IMG/VR virus record: IMGVR_UViG_3300025129_000005
Reading direction: 5' to 3' (one strand)
DNA from: a virus
Taxonomy: Duplodnaviria; Caudoviricetes
DNA length: 64,000 nt
In this document: positions 28,619 through 36,026 of the stretch, one piece after another
Numbering within the stretch: position 1 is the stretch's first letter
How the letters are laid out: each line of letters starts with the position of its first letter
The notes under the pieces: generated by a model
The model's input: only the letters and a program-made list of their open reading frames with translations
Told to the model about the DNA's origin: nothing
Database searches by the model: none
Translations under genes and position numbers: made by a program

Positions 28619-29473
28619 ATGCAGTTTCTTAATCAATTGAATCCTTTTTACCCTGTAATCCGAAATAAACTTTTCACCCCTTTCACCTATGAAGGTGACG
28701 AAACTCCTACAGATTTGTATGTTGACCGTGATGCACTGTTGAATGGTGAAAACGGTAAAGTTCTTGGTACTGTTGGTCCTCACTACAAACTTATGTTGAA
28801 CGAAGAGGTTTTTGATATTTTCTCAGAAGCCTTTGCCGATCTTCCGATTGAATCAGTTTGTGACCACCTGAACTGGAAACAGAACCGTTGGCAACGTGAT
28901 TTTATCCTCGATGGTGATCAGTTCAATATGTCAATTGGCGATGAAATTATTAAAACCAAGGTTTCAATTTTCAACGGGTACGATGGTAAATCCAGTGTAG
29001 GTTTCACTGTTGCCGCATACCGTGATAACGGAAATGTTACTTTCTTGAACAATATGTTCACTCAGACCTATTCGCACGTTCAACGCGGTCTGGTTGCCCG
29101 TATCCGTGAAGACTTTGCAGCAAAACTTGAACTTTTCCGTCAAACCGCTGAAATGTTTCGCCGTTTTGATCAAGAGGTGTTTACGGGTGAGCAATTTGAG
29201 TCTTTTGTTAATGGCCTGGTCGATGAAAGTGGTGGTCGCAATGGCTATTTGTCCGAAAATCAGGCGCGGTTAATTATCAACTCTTATAATCAACTATTTA
29301 CTCGTCTCGGAGTTCGACAAACGCGCTTCGGTGCATATACGGTTCTTTCGGCAATCGCATCCGAACGACCGGGACGCGGTAACAGTTCTCCTATTTTCAC
29401 GGCCGCTCACAAACGTATCGAAAAAGTTGTCGATGATTTCTTTTCTGATGCCGGAGATTTGTTCATCATCTAA
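28619..29473 (+). CDS. DUF932-like protein
   Basis: LGTVGPHYKLMLNEEVF, IFNGYDGKSSV pattern. Confidence 0.65.
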   Translation: MQFLNQLNPFYPVIRNKLFTPFTYEGDETPTDLYVDRDALLNGENGKVLGTVGPHYKLMLNEEVFDIFSEAFADLPIESVCDHLNWKQNRWQRDFILDGDQFNMSIGDEIIKTKVSIFNGYDGKSSVGFTVAAYRDNGNVTFLNNMFTQTYSHVQRGLVARIREDFAAKLELFRQTAEMFRRFDQEVFTGEQFESFVNGLVDESGGRNGYLSENQARLIINSYNQLFTRLGVRQTRFGAYTVLSAIASERPGRGNSSPIFTAAHKRIEKVVDDFFSDAGDLFII

Positions 29474-29819: not shown

Positions 29820-29861
29820 CACAAATTAATATTTTTTTTTTGCAAAAAAAATGAAATTTTT

Positions 29862-29869
29862 TATAAATA
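29862..29869 (+). promoter_or_regulatory. T4-type late promoter upstream of the leader peptide
   Basis: TATAAATA; the same motif recurs at 41029, 42998, 43913, 46877, 50748, 59560, 61889 and 62524, each just upstream of a gene or RNA. Confidence 0.65.
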
Positions 29870-29902
29870 ACTTATAAGAAGATTATGGAGATGTCAATTT
29901 CA

Positions 29903-30004
29903 ATGAAAAAATCACGGATACATATTAGTTGGTCGTTTAATATTAGCGACATGAACCCCATGGCGTGTTTTGTTACACGTGATGAGTATCAGGGGGTAGT
30001 GTAG
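29903..30004 (+). CDS. Putative attenuator leader peptide (33 aa)
   Basis: GGAG at 29887; MKKSRIHISWSFNISDMNPMACFVTRDEYQGVV*; the stop lies within the antiterminator strand. Confidence 0.55.
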   Translation: MKKSRIHISWSFNISDMNPMACFVTRDEYQGVV

Positions 30005-30073
30005 GTGGTTTAATTATTGGTATACATATATTAATAAAAACCACCTACAGAAAATTTTGTAGGTGGTTTTTTA
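30001..30073 (+). terminator. Terminator with an alternative antiterminator strand
   Basis: AAAAACCACCTACA/TGTAGGTGGTTTTTT hairpin at 30036-30072; upstream copy GTAGGTGGTTT at 30001-30011. Confidence 0.8.
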
Positions 30074-30106
30074 GTTTTATGATCCTTGACAATTAAATAT
30101 TTAGTA

Positions 30107-30135
30107 TTGACAAGTTAATGTCCTTGGTGTAAGAT
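30107..30135 (+). promoter_or_regulatory. Sigma70-type promoter of the tRNA array
   Basis: TTGACA-17-TAAGAT. Confidence 0.6.
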
Positions 30136-30158
30136 TTTATAAAACTTAAGGAGATTAT

Positions 30159-30229
30159 GCCCCTGTTAGTGGATTAAACTCTCGGCTACGAACTGAGATG
30201 GCAAGGTTCGACTCCTTGCAGGGGTGCCA
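30159..30229 (+). tRNA. tRNA-Arg(ACG)
   Basis: CTCGG-ctACGaa-CTGAG arm, GTTCGA T-loop, CCA end. Confidence 0.8.
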
Positions 30230-30240
30230 ATTTTAAACCC

Positions 30241-30555
30241 ATGGATGTATGCTTTTGGTGTAGACAGGCTAAAGACGAAACAGATACGACAGGTGTTCCT
30301 GAATTTTTTGATTATGATGCGTGTGATCGATGTCAATCTAAAATGGATGAAGGTATAACGATCATTCAGGTTGATATTGTAAGGAATGAAAATCCTGCAA
30401 TAAAAGATAACATCTATCCTACGGGAAAATGGGTCGTTGTTAAAGAAAACAGAATTCTTGAAGATTTTAAAGAATGGAAATCTTTAACGGAAGTTATACA
30501 AACTCGATGCATGTTTATGAACAAAGCAACATGGGATTCATATGGGTTATCGTGA
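30241..30555 (+). CDS. Zn-finger hypothetical protein
   Basis: CFWC...CDRC; ORF between tRNAs. Confidence 0.55.
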   Translation: MDVCFWCRQAKDETDTTGVPEFFDYDACDRCQSKMDEGITIIQVDIVRNENPAIKDNIYPTGKWVVVKENRILEDFKEWKSLTEVIQTRCMFMNKATWDSYGLS

Positions 30556-30565
30556 TATTTTTGTA

Positions 30566-30638
30566 GGGGATTGGTGTAATGGTAGCACACCTGATTTTGA
30601 GTCAGGCAATATCGGTTCGATTCCGTGCTACCCCACCA
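30566..30638 (+). tRNA. tRNA-Gln(TTG), imperfect acceptor stem
   Basis: CCTGA-ttTTGag-TCAGG, GGTTCGATT, CCA. Confidence 0.75.
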
Positions 30639-30713
30639 AAATTTTAAAGAGTCCTCAAACTCGGCGACTACCTCGACAAGTCTAAGGGATACGGTGCGAG
30701 GACTCGATATTTT

Positions 30714-30788
30714 GCTCCGTTCGTCTACTGGTTAGGACAGTGGGTTTTCAGTCCACTGAAAGGGGTTCGATTCCCCTACGGAGTACCA
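30714..30788 (+). tRNA. tRNA-Glu(TTC)
   Basis: GTGGG-ttTTCag-TCCAC; cloverleaf; CCA. Confidence 0.85.
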
Positions 30789-30796
30789 ATTTATGT

Positions 30797-30871
30797 TCCA
30801 AGTTAGTTCAGAGGTAGAACGTCTGGCTGTTAACCAGAATGTCGCAGGTTCGATCCCTGCACTTGGAGCCA
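30797..30871 (+). tRNA. tRNA-Asn(GTT)
   Basis: TCTGG-ctGTTaa-CCAGA; CCA. Confidence 0.9.
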
Positions 30872-30886
30872 AAATTAAATGGTTAT

Positions 30887-30962
30887 ACCCTGTAGATCAT
30901 CTGATGGTGATACCTGACTGTCACTCAGGATTTGGCGGGTTTGATTCCCGTACAGGGTGCCA
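30887..30962 (+). tRNA. tRNA-Asp(GTC)
   Basis: CCTGA-ctGTCac-TCAGG; CCA. Confidence 0.85.
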
Positions 30963-30970
30963 ATTTTATA

Positions 30971-31053
30971 TAGGCGTAAGTTAACGTGTATCTGGTGAAC
31001 ACACTGGCCTCCAAAACCAGCACTAAGGGGTTCGATTCCTCACGTCTATGCCA
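30971..31053 (+). tRNA. tRNA-Trp(CCA), enlarged D region
   Basis: CTGGC-ctCCAaa-ACCAG; TAGGCGT/ACGTCTA acceptor; CCA. Confidence 0.75.
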
Positions 31054-31057
31054 ATTT

Positions 31058-31133
31058 GTCTCTTAAGCTAATCTGGTGAAAGCGTCTGTTTGAAGAACAG
31101 AAGAGTCGGGTTCGAAACCTGAAAGAGACACCA
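31058..31133 (+). tRNA. tRNA-Phe(GAA)
   Basis: TCTGT-ttGAAga-ACAGA; CCA. Confidence 0.8.
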
Positions 31134-31210
31134 AGTTTGGGTTGACCGTGTATATCGGCTTCGGGGGGTTATCAAAACCCTCACCCAAGAAAAATCAAAA
31201 AAAAAACATC

Positions 31211-31239
31211 TTGACAATTCAAAACGAACCTGATAAGAT
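31211..31239 (+). promoter_or_regulatory. Sigma70-type promoter preceding an unidentified ncRNA
   Basis: TTGACA-17-TAAGAT. Confidence 0.65.
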
Positions 31240-31244
31240 GTTTT

Positions 31245-31592
31245 CACGGTTGAGGGAAAAAGGGTAGTGAAAAGTAGGGTCTGACGAAGAACATCAATGG
31301 TGTATGAATGCACGTCCCCTTTAGTACGGGGAAAGAACGGTTCAATTCCGGCGGTGATGACAAGTAGTGATCCGAATATCTTGAAACGTAGGAAAGTCCG
31401 AAGTAGTGTCCTGAAAGAAGTATTCTCAGAATTCACTGAGACTTCAATAGTAAGGTCTGACGAAATAAGAGACACCTTAGATTTCATTTGAGACTCACCC
31501 TTTACTCTAACAAAAGACGGATGAACCCAAACGACCCCGTGTGCAGGTGAGGGTTTTCGTTTCAGAATGGAACAAACGAACAAATTCCATTC
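31245..31592 (+). ncRNA. Unidentified ~350-nt structured RNA
   Basis: Own promoter; no convincing + strand ORF with an SD; 5' AAAGGGT pairs with ACCCTTT near 31497; repeated GGTCTGACGAA; several hairpins. Confidence 0.45.
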
Positions 31593-31655
31593 AAATTTTA
31601 AGGTAGATGGGTATAAGTTGATGATTTACCTCCTTGTACACTCTACCGGAAGTTT

Positions 31656-31731
31656 GCTCCCTTGGTGAAATTGTTTATCACATTCGCCTGATTAGCGAAA
31701 GTTCAGGGTTAGAATCCTTGAGGGAGTACCA
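31656..31731 (+). tRNA. tRNA-Ile(GAT)
   Basis: TTCGC-ctGATta-GCGAA; CCA. Confidence 0.8.
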
Positions 31732-31986
31732 AGTTTACACAGTTAAGGGGAAAGATGAGGTATCTTTCCATAGAAGACCCCCAACGGCCAAGTGGGAATA
31801 AGAATATGATACGGCGCTTTCCAATAGTATCATGAAACCTTGTCTTCGTAGCTTTCCCCTTTTTAATTTACAAGTTGTCAATGGCTCGGTGAATCATACT
31901 ACATCGGAACAGGTATCCGATAGTCCAGTAACCTGAATGTATGAGTGACAACGATTTAGTTAACCTTCTTGCGGATTGGAGAAATA

Positions 31987-32361
31987 ATGTTAAAAGCATA
32001 TTCTGTCTTTGCTGAGGGATGTCGGCAGGAACATGCTGAACTGGTATTCCACAGATCATCAAAAGAAGCGCGGTCATTGGCGTGGAAACGCCCGCACGGT
32101 AGTTTCTGCTGCGACTGGATCGACCTACGAGTTAATCGAGTAAAAGAAGTTGACCATTTGACCGACGGCAAAACAGAACCATTTGTTTGCCACGATAACG
32201 CGATGTTTCGTGAGGCTGGGTGGAGGAGTGAAGATTGCTCGTCGTGTGCCAGTTGTGGATTGACCGACTTTTCGGACGGAGAAAACAGGCAATGGGCAGT
32301 TTGCCTTGAGTGTGGGCAGTGTGGCGAGTGCGGACACGACGACGAGTGTATAAGCGCCTAA
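31987..32361 (+). CDS. Cys-rich hypothetical protein in a GC-richer insert within the tRNA array
   Basis: SD GGAG; CASCG...CLECGQCGECGH. Confidence 0.65.
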   Translation: MLKAYSVFAEGCRQEHAELVFHRSSKEARSLAWKRPHGSFCCDWIDLRVNRVKEVDHLTDGKTEPFVCHDNAMFREAGWRSEDCSSCASCGLTDFSDGENRQWAVCLECGQCGECGHDDECISA

Positions 32362-32371
32362 CAAGTATTAT

Positions 32372-32445
32372 CGCGGAATAGAGAAATGGCATCTCGTAAG
32401 GTTCATATCCTTGAGTTACGGGTTCGAATCCCGTTTCCGCTACCA
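32372..32445 (+). tRNA. tRNA-Met(CAT), initiator-like
   Basis: Starts CGCGG with a 1:72 mismatch like fMet; ttCATat loop; CCA. Confidence 0.75.
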
Positions 32446-32604
32446 AGTTCTGAGAGTGTCAGAGTATGTGTCATACAAGATCATATGCAATACGTGTAAA
32501 TAGCATATTGAGTTGTCACAGGCTCGGATACATGAACCGAAAGTTCCTTTAAACACGTCAAAAGGGAACACTGACACTCTCAGTTAGTCTTTTATGATTT
32601 ATAT

Positions 32605-32681
32605 CTGTCGGTACGCAAGTCTGGTATGCGACCTGCCTTGGACGCAGGAAATCGTGGGTTCAAATCCTACCCGGCAGACCA
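32605..32681 (+). tRNA. tRNA-Pro(TGG)
   Basis: CCTGC-ctTGGac-GCAGG; CCA. Confidence 0.88.
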
Positions 32682-32861
32682 TTTATATAGACGCGACACT
32701 TAGTTAGTGTCTAGTCAGGTGGCGATACCCTGATGATTGAAGGGGCTGACTATCCCAAAAAGCGCACTTTACACTCGTATGAGTATGTCCCTGTGGTGAC
32801 AGGGTTAGTGTTACGGTGGAGATTAATTTCTGTGAAGCTGACGCACATCACCAAAATTTAA

Positions 32862-32937
32862 GGGGGTAGGCAATGGGGTTGCGGCTTTTCCTTGCAAGGA
32901 AAGTGACTGAGGGGTTCGATTCCCCCTACCTCCACCA
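32862..32937 (+). tRNA. tRNA-Ala(TGC)
   Basis: ctTGCaa loop; G3:U70 identity pair; CCA. Confidence 0.82.
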
Positions 32938-32951
32938 AATTTATGAATTTT

Positions 32952-33029
32952 GACCCATTACTCCACGATGGCAGAGAGAACACGTTTAGACCGTGTACAG
33001 GGAGAGTTCGACACTCGCATGGGCTACCA
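32952..33029 (+). tRNA. tRNA-Leu(TAG), short variable loop
   Basis: ACACG-ttTAGac-CGTGT; CCA. Confidence 0.7.
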
Positions 33030-33037
33030 AAGTTTAA

Positions 33038-33109
33038 GCTCGTCGAAGGTCTGATGACCTAGTATCTCTTACAAAGAGACTGGATGGTTTGATTCCATGG
33101 CGAGTACCA
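33038..33109 (+). tRNA. tRNA-Val(TAC), divergent
   Basis: ctTACaa loop; GCTCGTC/GGCGAGT acceptor; CCA. Confidence 0.65.
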
Positions 33110-33115
33110 GTTAAA

Positions 33116-33191
33116 TCAGGAGTTAAGATAGAGGTAAATCGTGTTGGCTGTGACCCAGCAAACAAGGGTTCGAATTCCTTACTCCTGACCA
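33116..33191 (+). tRNA. tRNA-His(GTG)
   Basis: GTTGG-ctGTGac-CCAGC; CCA. Confidence 0.82.
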
Positions 33192-33194
33192 TAA

Positions 33195-33268
33195 GCCGGA
33201 TTAGTTAAATGGTATAACTTCTGTTTTGTAATCAGAATTTGCGGGTTCGATTCCTGCATCCGGCTCCA
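33195..33268 (+). tRNA. tRNA-Thr(TGT)
   Basis: ttTGTaa loop in TTCTG/CAGAA stem; CCA. Confidence 0.82.
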
Positions 33269-33281
33269 AGTTTAAAGTTTT

Positions 33282-33355
33282 GCGGGTATAGTTAAAAGGT
33301 ATAACTACAGCCTTCCAAGTTGTAATTGTCGGTTCGATTCCGTCTACCCGCTCCA
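33282..33355 (+). tRNA. tRNA-Gly(TCC)
   Basis: ACAGC-ctTCCaa-GTTGT; CCA. Confidence 0.88.
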
Positions 33356-33392
33356 ATACATAAGTTGTCAATATTTTAAATTGAATATAGTG

Positions 33393-33421
33393 TTGACATA
33401 GTTACATAAAGACTGTAGAAT
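33393..33421 (+). promoter_or_regulatory. Sigma70-type promoter within the tRNA array
   Basis: TTGACA-17-TAGAAT with extended TG. Confidence 0.7.
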
Positions 33422-33447
33422 ACTGATTAGTTTGTTTGAGAATTTAA

Positions 33448-33532
33448 GCCCCTTGCCCCGACAACAGACTTCTAATCTGTTCCTTAAAAGTTGGATGGAA
33501 GGTACGAGGTTCGATTCCTCCAAGGGGTTCCA
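33448..33532 (+). tRNA. Atypical tRNA-Arg(TCT): rudimentary D-arm, long extra region
   Basis: GCCCCTT/AAGGGGT acceptor; ACAGA-ctTCTaa-TCTGT; GAGG-TTCGATT-CCTC; CCA. Confidence 0.65.
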
Positions 33533-33545
33533 GAATATTAAATAT

Positions 33546-33620
33546 GCTCCTGTAATTCAATGGTAGAATAGGCGACTTATAATCGCTCTATAGTAGGTTC
33601 GAATCCTCTCAGGAGTACCA
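33546..33620 (+). tRNA. tRNA-Ile(TAT)
   Basis: GGCGA-ctTATaa-TCGCT; full cloverleaf; CCA. Confidence 0.82.
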
Positions 33621-33760
33621 GTTTTATAGAGGAAGTCTGATAGGCGTCATCCCAAACCTCTTTAAAAAAGTCGTGGGTGTCCGTTCCCTAAGAAGGTATG
33701 GGAGGACGAACTTCTCAAGTTTACAAATCGCTGAATATAGTGTATCATGTTTATATGTAT

Positions 33761-33836
33761 AGGGGTGTAGCGCAAAGGCAGAGGCATCAGGTTTAAGCCC
33801 TGATTAGTGGGAGTTCGAATCTCCTCACCCCTACCA
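33761..33836 (+). tRNA. tRNA-Leu(TAA), short variable loop
   Basis: TCAGG-ttTAAgc-CCTGA; CCA. Confidence 0.75.
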
Positions 33837-33849
33837 ATTTTATAGTTAT

Positions 33850-33925
33850 GGGGGCGTAGCCAAGTGGAATGGCAACAGACTTTTAATCTGTATATCGGTG
33901 GGTTCGAATCCCCCCGCCCTCACCA
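33850..33925 (+). tRNA. tRNA-Lys(TTT)
   Basis: ACAGA-ctTTTaa-TCTGT; CCA. Confidence 0.88.
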
Positions 33926-33940
33926 TTAGCGAGGTAATCT

Positions 33941-34295
33941 ATGGATGATAAACTACATACCTTAGAAATAACTGGCGGTGAAACGATAGAATTCAGAGAT
34001 AAATTATCTGGTTTTTTATCAAGAGCCACTCGGAACCTTTGAGCTTACGGATAAAGAAAAATATCTGCACAGTTTGGTTAAAGAGTACCACACCCGCTGC
34101 GAGGAATACGACAGGACGGTATGTACAGACCCGGTAGAGCGAGATGGGATTCTCCCCGCGAATGGTTTTGAGGTACGCCAAATCAACCTAAACGCCATAG
34201 AAGTGCGAAAAAATTTACAAGATCGAGCCTACAGAGAGCGTGGGATCTCGCCCGGCGAGGTGAGCAGAGCCATTTCGGACTACAGAGCCAGATAA
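33941..34295 (+). CDS. Hypothetical protein, apparently frameshifted at T6 34012-34017
   Basis: SD GAGGT and ATG 33941; the downstream frame is open from 33990 without its own ATG; removing one T fuses the two. Confidence 0.45.
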
Positions 34296-34356
34296 CCGGG
34301 TTGTCGTAGGTGAACCAACCATTAAAAAAGAAGCAAAAAAATGTTTAAGTTTTATG

Positions 34357-34385
34357 TTTACATACGGTAAACAAACTGGTATAGT
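34357..34385 (+). promoter_or_regulatory. Sigma70-type promoter of the giant ncRNA
   Basis: TTTACA-17-TATAGT. Confidence 0.6.
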
Positions 34386-34391
34386 GGTTAA

Positions 34392-35735
34392 GTAGTCACA
34401 ATCACCCATCACAGATAACCAAGAGAGATACTTGGTGTCCAGAGATAATATCAACGGGGTAAGGGATTGTGTCAAGTTCTTTGACAATTGAAAGTAAAAA
34501 CGGTTGACGGAATAATGGTTGCATGACCATAACGTACCCTGATAGGGGTTGAAATACCCAAAAGCCCGATGCGGTATATCTAAAGGGAGTGGTTAGTAAC
34601 GTCATCCTGAACAATGAACAGAACAGACCGAGGTAACGTAACCTAGTGTGGTCGCAATAAGGTCAAGGTTCTGGTTCTCCTGCTGAAATCCACACGATAG
34701 CCTATTATAGAATCAATGCCAGTGGGAGTTGGGGGTAAGGAAATTCCCCTCATCCAATGAACCCTTCGGGGGAGGTAAACAATAGGACTTGCTACCCTAT
34801 TGGGATGTGTCAGAATGTTTGGGTTGTCGAGAAATCTTGGATGATTGATGTTGTCATTCACCGTTTTTACTTTCAATTGCTAAAGAGCAATAAGTTCTTT
34901 CAAAATCAGAATATGGTCGCTTGAGGTCATAGAAATAAACCACGGTAACGTGGGGAAAGGGATGTACTTCTATCAGTCTCCCGCCCTATAAAAGGGATAA
35001 TCAAGCAAGCCTCGTCTTCACCCGTAATGGGTGAGTTCATCTTACCAAGGGATGGACTTGAGTAAGGACGGTAGAGTAGGACAAATAAACCAATGGGTAA
35101 CTCTGGTTGGTTTATCTTTCGGGTGGTACCGAATTACTGCATACCAAATCTACTTAATTACAAAAGATAAGGGGTAATCAACTCAGTCCGAGAGTAGTGT
35201 CAAGGGCGGTTGGTAGTTCGATAGGGAACGGATACCTACGGTAGTAGGTGGACGGAATCTTGACAAACCATTGAGTACCAATACAAACGGGAAAGATACT
35301 AGGTGTGTGGTATTTCGTAGTCGCAAGATTATGAATCCACAGGGGTCACACATCTTCGATAGTTAATTGACAGCCCTTGAAAGCTGTTGATTATTGGTTC
35401 AAATCCAATATTAATACTCAAACGCAAAGTTGACCCCGCTGTATGATGAAAGTGGCTTAATCCCCAACATGTTATGTGAATTGGGGTACTCAAAACCCGC
35501 AAGGTGGAGAGTATTGATAGGGAGTCGCACTTAGGGTGTTCGCTACACACTAGGGTAGACAAAGTATTGAATAGTCATACAGGACAGTGTTAAAGCAGAC
35601 ACTTTAATAATGCAGTCACGTTGGGATACATGAATGAGTTTCATGTGGACACGTGAGGAACCAAAGGGAATAAGTCCCCTACGGATAATCTCACAAAAGT
35701 CTTGACAACGAAGGTCTTAGTCTCAAACCTTCATA
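34392..35735 (+). ncRNA. GOLLD-like giant structured ncRNA (~1.35 kb)
   Basis: No credible ORF; GC-richer; dense hairpins with GNRA/UUCG-type loops (CGCAAG, CTTCGG, GTAAC); 19-bp long-range helix; located in a phage tRNA array. The GOLLD assignment rests on recalled 3' motifs and is not computed. Confidence 0.55.
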
Positions 35736-35829
35736 CTTTTTAAAAAAAAGTATACAATGATTTACAAAGTAAATAATAAGATACACTTTTCCTGATATCT
35801 CTAAGAGGTATGAGGAAAAGTGTATATTT

Positions 35830-35913
35830 GGCGGGTAGCGTCAAGGTGACAAAAGTGGCTTGAACCCACTGCCACGGTAAAACGTGAGAGTTCGATTCTT
35901 TTACCCGCCTCCA
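35830..35913 (+). tRNA. tRNA-Ser(TGA)
   Basis: AGTGG-ctTGAac-CCACT; long variable arm; CCA. Confidence 0.82.
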
Positions 35914-35918
35914 TTCAC

Positions 35919-36008
35919 GGAAAGCTAATCAGTAAGGTACTGACACCACCTGCTAAGTGGCTGGTTCGTGGTAACACGGATGGATTTCGAATATCCAGCT
36001 TTCCTCCA
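35919..36008 (+). tRNA. tRNA-Ser(GCT)
   Basis: CCAC-ctGCTaa-GTGG; long variable arm; CCA. Confidence 0.8.
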
Positions 36009-36026
36009 TTAAACATAAGGACTCTT

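What the first reader, a model, noticed from the sequence alone, without database searches (positions are those of the whole stretch)
29862..30075. Leader-peptide attenuator sampling nearly all amino acids in front of the tRNA array
Seen: late promoter TATAAATA (29862), then SD, then a 33-codon ORF encoding 19 of the 20 amino acids (no Leu). It includes a run of 14 consecutive different residues (NPMACFVTRDEYQG) and codons unusual in this AT-rich genome (CGG, TCG, AGC, CCC, GCG, GGG). Its TAG lies inside GTAGGTGGTTT (30001-30011), an exact copy of the 3' arm of the downstream terminator, which can pair with the 5' arm AAACCACCTAC. Established: this is the layout of ribosome-mediated attenuation. 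Inference: a ribosome reaching the stop masks the antiterminator, so transcription terminates; stalling on any depleted or cleaved tRNA allows read-through into 20+ tRNA genes. That would be a general tRNA-deficiency sensor suited to countering anticodon-nuclease defences. Caveat: a sigma70 promoter at 30107 can express the array independently, so the attenuator would mainly control late supply.
Basis: partly seen in the sequence, partly recalled or inferred. Interest (0 to 1): 0.8.

Follow-up and report, generated by a model that had tools for sequence, protein, structure and literature searches.

The report
All-amino-acid leader attenuator before phage tRNAs
An uncultured giant phage and all 12 relatives examined place a tiny translated gene that uses nearly every amino acid, wired to a switchable transcription stop, in front of their tRNA genes; it looks like a sensor that lets extra tRNA transcription through whenever any codon is read slowly, a control I could not find published.

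Summary
At 29862-30075 there is a TATAAATA box, a Shine-Dalgarno site, a 33-codon ORF with 19 of 20 amino acids, and a stop codon inside an exact copy of the terminator's 3' arm.

The same cassette precedes the tRNA array in 12 other distinct loci from unrelated metagenomes. Their leader peptides are only 17-85% identical.
- Both the terminator and the competing antiterminator helix keep pairing through compensatory changes.
- The stop codon always lies in or right after the antiterminator's 5' strand.
- The ORF is always intact, with dN/dS of about 0.2-0.6.
- 12 of 14 leader peptides (33-43 aa) contain all 20 amino acids and two contain 19. Chance gives about 0.3-2% per peptide.
- Column shuffles never reach this (0 of 20,000), because Cys, Tyr and His change position between lineages without being lost.

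Best reading: a trp-type ribosome-mediated attenuator whose leader samples all amino acids. A ribosome that finishes quickly causes termination; a stall at any codon allows read-through into the tRNA array. Function is inferred, not shown.

I found no published precedent. This scan has noted block-specific leader attenuators before phage tRNA arrays on other DNA, and this same leader in a near-identical genome.

The parts
29832..29851 (+). T10-GC-A8 palindrome just upstream of the promoter box. Relatives carry one or two TTTTTTCnGAAAAA copies at the same place. Role unknown (weak terminator or insulator, or a protein site).
   Evidence: sequence
29862..29869 (+). TATAAATA box, a T4-late-type promoter consensus; putative promoter of the leader transcript.
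   Evidence: Exact in 11 of 13 loci, with one-base or two-base variants in 2, lying 19-40 nt before the leader ATG. The same box sits 28 nt before the endolysin gene at 41064 and before other genes. Promoter activity is inferred.
29887..29891 (+). Shine-Dalgarno GGAGA, 11 nt before the start codon.
   Evidence: an SD is present at 10-12 nt spacing in 12 of 13 loci
29903..30004 (+). Leader ORF: 33 codons, 19 of 20 amino acids, 28 distinct codons, TAG stop at 30002-30004.
30001..30011 (+). Segment 2: the 5' strand of the antiterminator. It is a copy of the terminator's 3' arm and contains the stop codon.
30014..30037 (+). Inner A/U-rich hairpin in the antiterminator loop. It extends the antiterminator stem to -23.8 kcal/mol and persists beside the terminator.
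30038..30048 (+). Segment 3: the shared strand. It pairs either with segment 2 (antiterminator) or with segment 4 (terminator).
30059..30072 (+). Segment 4 plus T run: the 3' arm of the intrinsic terminator (whole hairpin 30036-30072).
30107..30135 (+). Sigma70-like promoter TTGACA-17-TAAGAT between the terminator and the first tRNA. It could give attenuator-independent expression of the array.
   Evidence: a TTGACA box lies 82-102 nt after the stop in all 13 loci
30159..40376 (+). Controlled unit: a tRNA array (23 tRNA genes seen) interspersed with small protein genes and large ncRNAs. It begins with tRNA-Arg(ACG) at 30159-30229.

Best explanation
This is a ribosome-mediated (leader-peptide) transcription attenuator placed between an upstream TATAAATA promoter and the phage's tRNA array. 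Its leader has been selected to contain every amino acid and an unusually wide set of codons.

Proposed working:
1. Transcripts from the TATAAATA promoter carry the 33-codon ORF.
2. If the ribosome runs through all codons and reaches the stop, it covers segment 2 (30001-30011). Segment 3 then pairs with segment 4, the intrinsic terminator forms, and transcription ends at about 30072.
3. If the ribosome is held up at any earlier codon (uncharged, depleted or cleaved tRNA, or missing amino acid), or never loads, segment 2 is free when segment 3 emerges. The antiterminator forms and RNA polymerase reads on into the tRNA genes.

The result is negative feedback on tRNA supply that is blind to which tRNA is short. 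A separate sigma70-type promoter after the terminator gives attenuator-independent (probably early) expression.

Shown: the anatomy, its conservation, covariation of both helices, the coding signature, and amino-acid and codon completeness.
Inferred: promoter activity and timing, ribosome masking, the kinetic race, and the physiological trigger.
For: 1. Anatomy in the window.

2. The same cassette lies in front of the tRNA array in 12 further distinct loci. They were reached through flanking genes and by peptide profile, not through the leader's own features.

3. Energies. The antiterminator is -13.1 to -23.8 kcal/mol before the 3' arm is made. The terminator is -15.8 to -23.4 kcal/mol when the stop-codon ribosome footprint is masked. 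This holds in all 13 loci.

4. Covariation.
- Antiterminator: 88% of cells paired, 8 of 11 pairs changed on both sides, and 0 of 500 shuffles reach the score. Slid controls pair 34-45%.
- Terminator: 92% of cells paired, 8 of 10 pairs changed on both sides.
- Each segment 2 pairs best with its own segment 3: -15.5 against -10.8 kcal/mol, permutation p<5e-6.

5. The stop codon lies 1-20 nt inside or just after the start of segment 2 in all 11 loci measured. The distance from the stop to the end of the T run is 56-70 nt.

6. The ORF is intact in all 13 loci despite synonymous divergence of about 0.5 per site. Indels are in whole codons, dN/dS is mostly 0.2-0.6, and an SD sits 10-12 nt before the ATG in 12 of 13 loci.

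7. Amino-acid completeness.
- 12 of 14 peptides hold all 20 amino acids and 2 hold 19.
- The null for 33-43 aa windows is 0.3-1.9% for 20 of 20, with a mean of 15.4-16.7 kinds.
- Column shuffling, which keeps site conservation, gives 1.8 complete peptides on average and at most 7. Zero of 20,000 shuffles reach 12.
- Cys sits at 4 or more different alignment positions, Tyr at 3 or more, and His at 2, yet each is kept once per peptide.
- Three leaders (L023, L030, L031) are only 17-43% identical to the rest and are still complete.

8. Codon diversity is 28-34 distinct codons against a null mean of 22.6-26.9.

9. In 7-8 of 11 loci all 20 amino acids are encoded upstream of the zone where a stalled ribosome would itself mask segment 2.

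10. This is the only such three-segment motif on the coding strand of the 64-kb window, and the covariance model finds one hit per locus.
Against: - There are no expression or termination data of any kind. The RNA contigs available do not cover the leader.
- No convincing anti-antiterminator (a trp-style 1:2 hairpin) or pause hairpin was found, so an untranslated leader would read through by default. This differs from classic attenuators and leaves the synchronisation of ribosome and polymerase unexplained. A candidate hairpin inside the ORF is weak and is absent from this window.
- Each amino acid mostly occurs once, whereas classic leaders use runs. A single hungry codon may give only a weak signal.
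- In this window the match between leader and array is imperfect. The leader lacks Leu although two tRNA-Leu genes follow. It contains Cys, Trp and Tyr, for which no tRNA gene was seen in the window.
- A strong conserved promoter right after the terminator means the attenuator can control only part of the array's transcription.
- The main-group peptides share a motif (W-S-L .. K-P .. F .. R-H-E), so some selection acts on the sequence itself or on RNA structure.
Confidence: 0.75

Rival explanations
1. The switch works as a ribosome-dependent attenuator but reports only overall translation capacity or transcription-translation coupling (ribosome availability, initiation, global elongation rate). 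It would not report the supply of each individual tRNA, and the amino-acid completeness would have another cause.
For: The geometry only requires that the ribosome arrives late or on time. Single codons per amino acid give a weak per-tRNA signal. Default read-through without translation fits a 'translation is failing' alarm.
Against: It leaves the strongest signal unexplained: 12 of 14 peptides are complete, rare residues relocate rather than being lost, and codon diversity is extreme. A pure speed timer would not need all 20 amino acids.
Confidence: 0.12
2. The ORF is an ordinary small phage gene for a functional micropeptide with its own promoter and terminator. Pairing of the stop-codon region with the terminator's 5' arm would be incidental, or would serve mRNA stability.
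For: dN/dS is below 1 and the main group shares a motif. The ORF was called as a gene in several assemblies.
Against: The peptide evolves much faster than its neighbours: 17-60% identity where the flanking DUF932 protein is 54-84% identical. Three lineages have essentially unrelated sequences but keep the length, the completeness and the switch. The antiterminator helix covaries through 8 of 11 pairs. The stop codon is locked to segment 2 in all 11 loci measured. None of this is expected for a plain gene plus terminator.
Confidence: 0.07
3. Antitermination is controlled by a protein or small RNA that binds the alternative hairpin (a Bgl/Sac or TRAP-like logic). Translation of the ORF would be irrelevant to the decision.
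For: Alternative terminator/antiterminator hairpins are also used by factor-dependent systems. The conserved A/U hairpin in the loop and the palindrome upstream of the promoter could be binding sites.
Against: There is no repeated binding motif of the TRAP or RAT type. No Rfam family reaches its threshold. The conserved ORF, the SD and the locked stop-codon position would be unexplained.
Confidence: 0.05

Closest known systems
trp operon leader (trpL) attenuator of E. coli and other classical leader-peptide attenuators (hisL, leuL, thrL, pheL)
   Same: A promoter-proximal short ORF with an SD; an intrinsic terminator whose 5' arm can instead pair with an upstream segment; a stop codon placed so that a terminating ribosome masks that segment; efficient translation gives termination and a stall gives read-through.
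   Different: The regulatory codons are not a run of one amino acid but one or two codons of every amino acid. The controlled genes are tRNAs, not biosynthetic enzymes. No 1:2 anti-antiterminator or pause hairpin was recognised, so the untranslated state is predicted to read through. The element is carried by a virus.
Multivalent attenuators (ilvGMEDA leader sensing Ile/Leu/Val; thr leader sensing Thr/Ile)
   Same: One leader senses more than one amino acid through mixed codons.
   Different: Those sense 2-3 related amino acids with many repeats each. This one covers 19-20 amino acids, mostly as singletons, with 28-34 distinct codons.
pheST attenuator and T-box riboswitches of aminoacyl-tRNA synthetase genes
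   Same: Transcription attenuation is used as feedback on a component of the decoding machinery, in response to poor charging or decoding.
   Different: Each of those is specific for one amino acid or tRNA. T-boxes bind uncharged tRNA directly and need no ribosome. Neither controls tRNA genes.
Block-specific leader-peptide attenuators before phage tRNA arrays noted earlier in this scan on other genomes (AI notes, unpublished, not checked here)
   Same: A mini-ORF plus terminator/antiterminator in front of tRNA genes of giant phages, with the same proposed feedback logic.
   Different: Those are described as several cassettes per genome, each leader written in the amino acids of its own tRNA block. 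Here a single leader carries all amino acids and gates the whole array, and there is no sequence similarity to them that I tested.

Membership tests
Ribosome-mediated (leader-peptide) transcription attenuator | Short ORF with a ribosome-binding site near the 5' end of the transcript, shown to be coding | tested here: met
   There is an ATG with an SD 10-12 nt upstream in 12 of 13 loci. The ORF is intact in all 13 loci despite about 0.5 synonymous differences per site, and dN/dS is mostly 0.2-0.6. Translation itself was not measured.
Ribosome-mediated (leader-peptide) transcription attenuator | Intrinsic terminator between the leader ORF and the regulated genes | tested here: met
   A 16-pair hairpin plus T run at 30036-30072. 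It is conserved with 92% pairing, and 8 of 10 pairs changed on both sides.
Ribosome-mediated (leader-peptide) transcription attenuator | Mutually exclusive antiterminator that uses the terminator's 5' arm | tested here: met
   Segment 2 pairs with segment 3 at -13 to -24 kcal/mol in all 13 loci. Pairing is 88%, 8 of 11 pairs changed on both sides, and 0 of 500 shuffles reach the score.
Ribosome-mediated (leader-peptide) transcription attenuator | Ribosome position decides the fold: the stop codon is placed so that a terminating ribosome masks the antiterminator strand | tested here: met
   The stop codon lies 1-20 nt inside or after the start of segment 2 in all 11 loci measured. This is geometry only; the masking itself is inferred.
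Ribosome-mediated (leader-peptide) transcription attenuator | Regulatory codons enriched for the sensed amino acid(s) | tested here: not met
   No amino acid is enriched. Instead, all 20 are present in 12 of 14 leaders, mostly once each. This is the departure that defines the variant.
Ribosome-mediated (leader-peptide) transcription attenuator | Anti-antiterminator or pause hairpin (1:2) that synchronises the ribosome and the polymerase | tested here: inconclusive
   A hairpin between the W-S-L and N-N-D codons appears in most relatives. However, its consensus energy is only -1.3 kcal/mol, it has no favourable covariation term, and it is missing in this window.
Ribosome-mediated (leader-peptide) transcription attenuator | Read-through responds to translation of the leader | not testable with these tools
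   This needs reporter, in vitro transcription-translation or Term-seq data. The available RNA contigs do not cover the leader.
Rfam-curated leader or attenuator families | Score at or above the gathering threshold of a curated model | tested here: not met
   The best hit is the trpB motif at 31.8 bits against a threshold of 59. It is terminator-like only.

The most novel reading that the evidence does not exclude
The element is a universal tRNA-supply sensor. A stall at any one of about 30 different codons switches on late transcription of the phage's own tRNA set. The phage would thus replace tRNAs on demand when the host pool is depleted, whether by host shut-off, starvation or tRNA-cleaving defence nucleases. 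This would be the first feedback-regulated viral tRNA supply and the first leader peptide selected for amino-acid completeness rather than enrichment.
Probability: 0.45. Interest if true: 0.9.

Novelty: new variant of a known kind. Interest (0 to 1): 0.85.

Why it matters
Phage tRNA arrays are usually treated as constitutively expressed cargo. Why they are kept, and how they are used, is still debated; proposals include codon-usage matching, compensating for degradation of host tRNAs, and evading anticodon nucleases.

A conserved attenuator whose leader is under selection to contain every amino acid would show that at least one phage lineage measures decoding performance and adjusts tRNA transcription to it.

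It also extends the textbook attenuation mechanism in two ways. The sensing principle changes from enrichment of one amino acid to completeness. The class of controlled gene changes from biosynthetic enzymes to tRNAs.

The prediction is directly testable in a reconstituted translation system by omitting single amino acids or tRNAs. Such a compact all-codon sensor could also be useful as a synthetic-biology reporter of translational stress.

Tried and rejected
- blastn of the region against 50,697 phage records gave no match, so the phage has no sequenced close relative there.
- The search for related loci with the two upstream proteins in IMG/VR found nothing.
- An exact scan of IMG/VR with the conserved promoter block GAATATTGTTGACAAAC gave 10 hits, all unrelated coding sequence.
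- The metagenome scan with the 103-aa protein alignment gave only 4 loci. The species-genome scan gave none.
- No whole genome is held for the window. The records behind L017 and L018 are not held, so the more distant relatives whose loci stop before the tRNA array could not be examined.
- Metatranscriptome contigs from four aquifer RNA runs do not cover 29862-30075. One contig spans 30114-30348 and three start at 31254-31268. Contigs cannot show transcript ends, so this says nothing for or against termination or read-through at the leader.
- Rfam at permissive thresholds gave only sub-threshold, terminator-like hits (trpB motif 31.8 of 59 bits, rliG, RsaD).
- The search for a trp-style 1:2 hairpin or pause hairpin in the ORF was inconclusive.
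- PHROG scans of 29 window proteins found no gp55-like late sigma factor in this 64 kb. 'Late' therefore rests on the T4 consensus and on the same box lying before the endolysin gene.
- P0037 and P0038 from the peptide-profile search are translated repeat arrays, not leaders.
- The longer in-frame starts at 29885 and 29891 were rejected, because relatives have no ATG there and the conserved SD lies inside them.
- Literature searches on six term sets found no description of attenuators before tRNA genes or of all-amino-acid leaders. The library lacks most subscription journals.

Full report
**What the window is.** The 64-kb window is AT-rich (about 36% GC), with almost all genes on the + strand. 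It encodes gp46-like SbcC, a UvsX/RecA-like recombinase, ribonucleotide reductase, a ClpB-like ATPase, thymidylate synthase, an endolysin and homing endonucleases. The best phage matches are only about 25% identical, to T4-like and jumbo phages, and there is no DNA match among 50,697 phage records. The same DNA is present in about 20 aquifer and cold-spring metagenome runs. It is therefore an uncultured, distantly T4-like giant phage.

ARAGORN finds 21 tRNA genes between 30159 and 40376. Rfam and inspection add tRNA-Asp(GTC) at 30887-30959 and tRNA-Val(TAC) at 33038-33109.

**Check of the observation.** All items are present at the stated coordinates.
- TATAAATA is at 29862-29869 and GGAGA at 29887-29891.
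- The ATG is at 29903 and the TAG at 30002-30004, giving 33 codons with 19 different amino acids and no Leu.
- GTAGGTGGTTT is at 30001-30011 and 30059-30069, with its complement at 30038-30048. No other exact copy occurs in the window.
- There is a 16-pair terminator with a T run at 30036-30072, and a TTGACA-17-TAAGAT promoter at 30107-30135.
- The six codons called unusual make up 3-16% of their synonymous families in this phage's genes. The leader's codon score is in the lowest 4% of gene windows.
- Random 33-residue windows of the phage's own proteins reach 19 kinds of amino acid in 1.8% of draws and 28 distinct codons in about 1%.
- A scan for the three-segment motif (copy, complement, copy, T run) finds only this site on the coding strand.

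**Relatives.** Homologues of the upstream DUF932-like gene (28619-29473) exist in many metagenomes at 45-99% identity. I fetched their contigs. I also searched with the conserved 103-aa protein that follows tRNA-Arg and with a profile of the leader peptides themselves.

This gave 12 further distinct DNA loci: L001, L002, L004, L005, L016, L020, L023 (the same sequence as L019, L028 and L029), L024, L025, L026, L030 and L031. It also gave one more peptide (P0034) and one truncated copy at a contig end (L021).

In every locus the same cassette sits immediately upstream of the tRNA array. Its parts are:
- a TATAAATA box, exact in 11 of 13 loci, 19-40 nt before the ATG;
- an SD at 10-12 nt spacing in 12 of 13 loci;
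- a 33-43 codon ORF;
- a stop codon in or right after a copy of the terminator's 3' arm;
- the terminator;
- a TTGACA-type promoter 82-102 nt after the stop.

In most loci tRNA-Arg(ACG) comes next.

**The RNA switch.** I folded each locus twice.
- Without its terminator 3' arm, each leader forms a segment 2:segment 3 hairpin of -13.1 to -23.8 kcal/mol.
- With the footprint of a ribosome at the stop codon masked, the segment 3:segment 4 terminator forms at -15.8 to -23.4 kcal/mol.

The three segments differ between loci, and they change together. Examples are GTAGGTGG.., GAAAGTGG.., GTAAGGGT.., TGTGACC.. and TAAATGG.. .

I built a covariance model from the 13 sequences. It finds exactly one hit per locus and none elsewhere in 196 kb. 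Counts on its alignment are as follows.
- Antiterminator: 88% of cells paired, and 8 of 11 pairs with changes on both sides. The covariation score is 0.31 against 0.17±0.02 in shuffles (0 of 500 reach it). Slid controls pair 34-45% of cells.
- Terminator: 92% of cells paired, 8 of 10 pairs with changes on both sides, and 0 of 500 shuffles.

The alignment was fitted to the antiterminator structure, which favours that count. It also leaves three sequences out of register in segment 3, which works against it.

An alignment-free test agrees. Each segment 2 pairs better with its own segment 3 than with those of other loci: -15.5 against -10.8 kcal/mol, and no permutation in 200,000 does as well.

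The stop codon lies 1-20 nt inside or after the first paired base of segment 2 in all 11 loci measured. The distance from the stop to the end of the T run is held at 56-70 nt.

**The ORF is coding.** Synonymous differences are about 0.3-0.7 per site, yet the frame is open in all 13 loci and all indels are whole codons. dN/dS is mostly 0.2-0.6 within the main group. This constraint is looser than for typical proteins. The peptides are 17-85% identical, while the neighbouring DUF932 protein is 54-84% identical in the same contigs.

**Amino-acid completeness.** Of 14 distinct leader peptides (33-43 residues), 12 contain all 20 amino acids. The other two contain 19: this window lacks Leu and L002 lacks Cys. 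Each peptide has 8-11 residues that occur only once.

- For windows of this length the chance of a complete set is 0.3-1.9%, and the mean is 15.4-16.7 kinds.
- Because the sequences are related, I also shuffled residues within alignment columns, which keeps site conservation. Shuffles give 1.8 complete peptides on average and never more than 7. The total count of kinds is 278 observed against 254.5±3.3. Zero of 20,000 shuffles reach the observed values (11-sequence version).
- The reason is visible in the alignment. Cys sits before the conserved Phe in some lineages, after W-S-L in one, and in E-I-C-E-G in others. Tyr sits in D-x-Y-x-G, before R-H, or before Trp. His sits in R-H or near the N-terminus. 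Where one position has lost the residue, another has gained it.
- Three leaders (L023, L030, L031) are only 17-43% identical to all the others and are still complete.
- Codon diversity is likewise extreme: 28-34 distinct codons against 22.6-26.9 expected.
- In 7 of 11 loci (12-nt footprint) or 8 of 11 (9-nt footprint), all 20 amino acids are encoded upstream of the zone where a stalled ribosome would itself cover segment 2.

The column shuffle does not remove phylogenetic correlation. The real number of independent compensating events is of the order of six to ten, not thousands. Even so, the direction and consistency of the signal are clear.

**Mechanism proposed.** This is trp-type attenuation.
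- A ribosome that completes the leader sits on segment 2 while the polymerase makes segments 3 and 4, so the terminator forms.
- A ribosome delayed at any earlier codon leaves segment 2 free to capture segment 3, so the polymerase continues into the tRNA genes.

Because the leader samples every amino acid and about 30 codons, the switch would respond to a shortage of any charged tRNA. Its output, more tRNA, would relieve that shortage.

The TATAAATA box matches the T4 late-promoter consensus. In this window it also lies 28 nt before the endolysin gene and in front of several other genes. Late timing is therefore plausible but inferred; no gp55-like factor was found in the 29 window proteins scanned.

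**Weak points.**
- There are no transcript or ribosome data.
- No convincing 1:2 or pause hairpin was found, so an untranslated leader should read through by default.
- Codons are single rather than in runs.
- In this window the leader and the array do not match perfectly. The leader has no Leu codon although two tRNA-Leu genes follow, and it has Cys, Trp and Tyr codons without matching tRNA genes in the window.
- The anticodon-nuclease scenario is one of several possible triggers and is untested.

**Comparison with what is known.** The element meets the structural definition of a leader-peptide attenuator: ORF, terminator, competing antiterminator and stop-codon placement. It fails the usual criterion of enrichment for one amino acid and replaces it with completeness. 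It also controls tRNA genes in a virus. The closest systems are:
- trpL, hisL and similar leaders;
- the multivalent ilv and thr leaders;
- by logic only, the pheST attenuator and T-boxes.

No Rfam family reaches its threshold. Six literature searches found no description of attenuators in front of tRNA genes or of all-amino-acid leaders.

Earlier notes of this scan report leader-peptide attenuators before tRNA blocks in other giant phages. There, several leaders are each written in the amino acids of their own block. The same leader as here was noted, without follow-up, in a near-identical genome. Those are unchecked AI notes. They suggest that the single, complete leader found here is one design within a wider, unpublished class.

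**Verdict.** I file it as a new variant of a known kind and rate its interest high.

Noticed in passing
window 35300-35729: A GOLLD RNA (Rfam RF02032) scores 177 bits, above its gathering score of 150, inside the tRNA array.
   Followed up: partly
window 31211-31600: RNA contigs from three separate aquifer metatranscriptome runs begin at 31254-31268, just downstream of the sigma70-like promoter at 31211-31239. The unidentified RNA noted there is therefore present in RNA libraries.
   Followed up: partly
window 30887-30959 and 33038-33109: ARAGORN misses two tRNA genes: Asp(GTC) (Rfam tRNA 37.9 bits) and Val(TAC). Both have a short TGAT-type D-loop. No Cys, Trp or Tyr tRNA was seen in the window, although relatives carry them in the same array.
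   Followed up: partly
window 29832-29851; the same position in L001, L004, L005, L024 and L031: A T-run/A-run palindrome (T10-GC-A8 here; one or two TTTTTTCnGAAAAA copies in relatives) lies 10-30 nt upstream of the TATAAATA box of the leader. It could be a weak bidirectional terminator or insulator, or a protein site.
   Followed up: no
L021:1-170: One relative, at a contig end, keeps the terminator/antiterminator switch (covariance model hit at 95-169), but its leader ORF is cut down to about 14 codons. This is either a degenerate copy or an assembly chimera.
   Followed up: no
window 30241-30555; L001:6352-6663 and others: A conserved 103-104 aa protein with two CxxC pairs and an invariant P-T-G-x-W motif sits between tRNA-Arg and tRNA-Gln in every relative. 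It has no PHROG family. Several relatives also carry a gene with a weak Ribosomal_L12 (PF00542) hit inside the array.
   Followed up: no
window 41029-41036 and 41064-41642: A TATAAATA box lies 28 nt before an endolysin gene (phrog_315). Further boxes lie in front of the Hsp20 gene and other ORFs, consistent with a T4-late-type promoter in this lineage.
   Followed up: partly
window 30114-30348: A low-depth RNA-library contig spans the sigma70-like promoter's -10 region, tRNA-Arg and the start of the 104-aa gene. It begins upstream of the expected sigma70 start site. It is a contig only, so it gives no conclusion about transcript ends.
   Followed up: no
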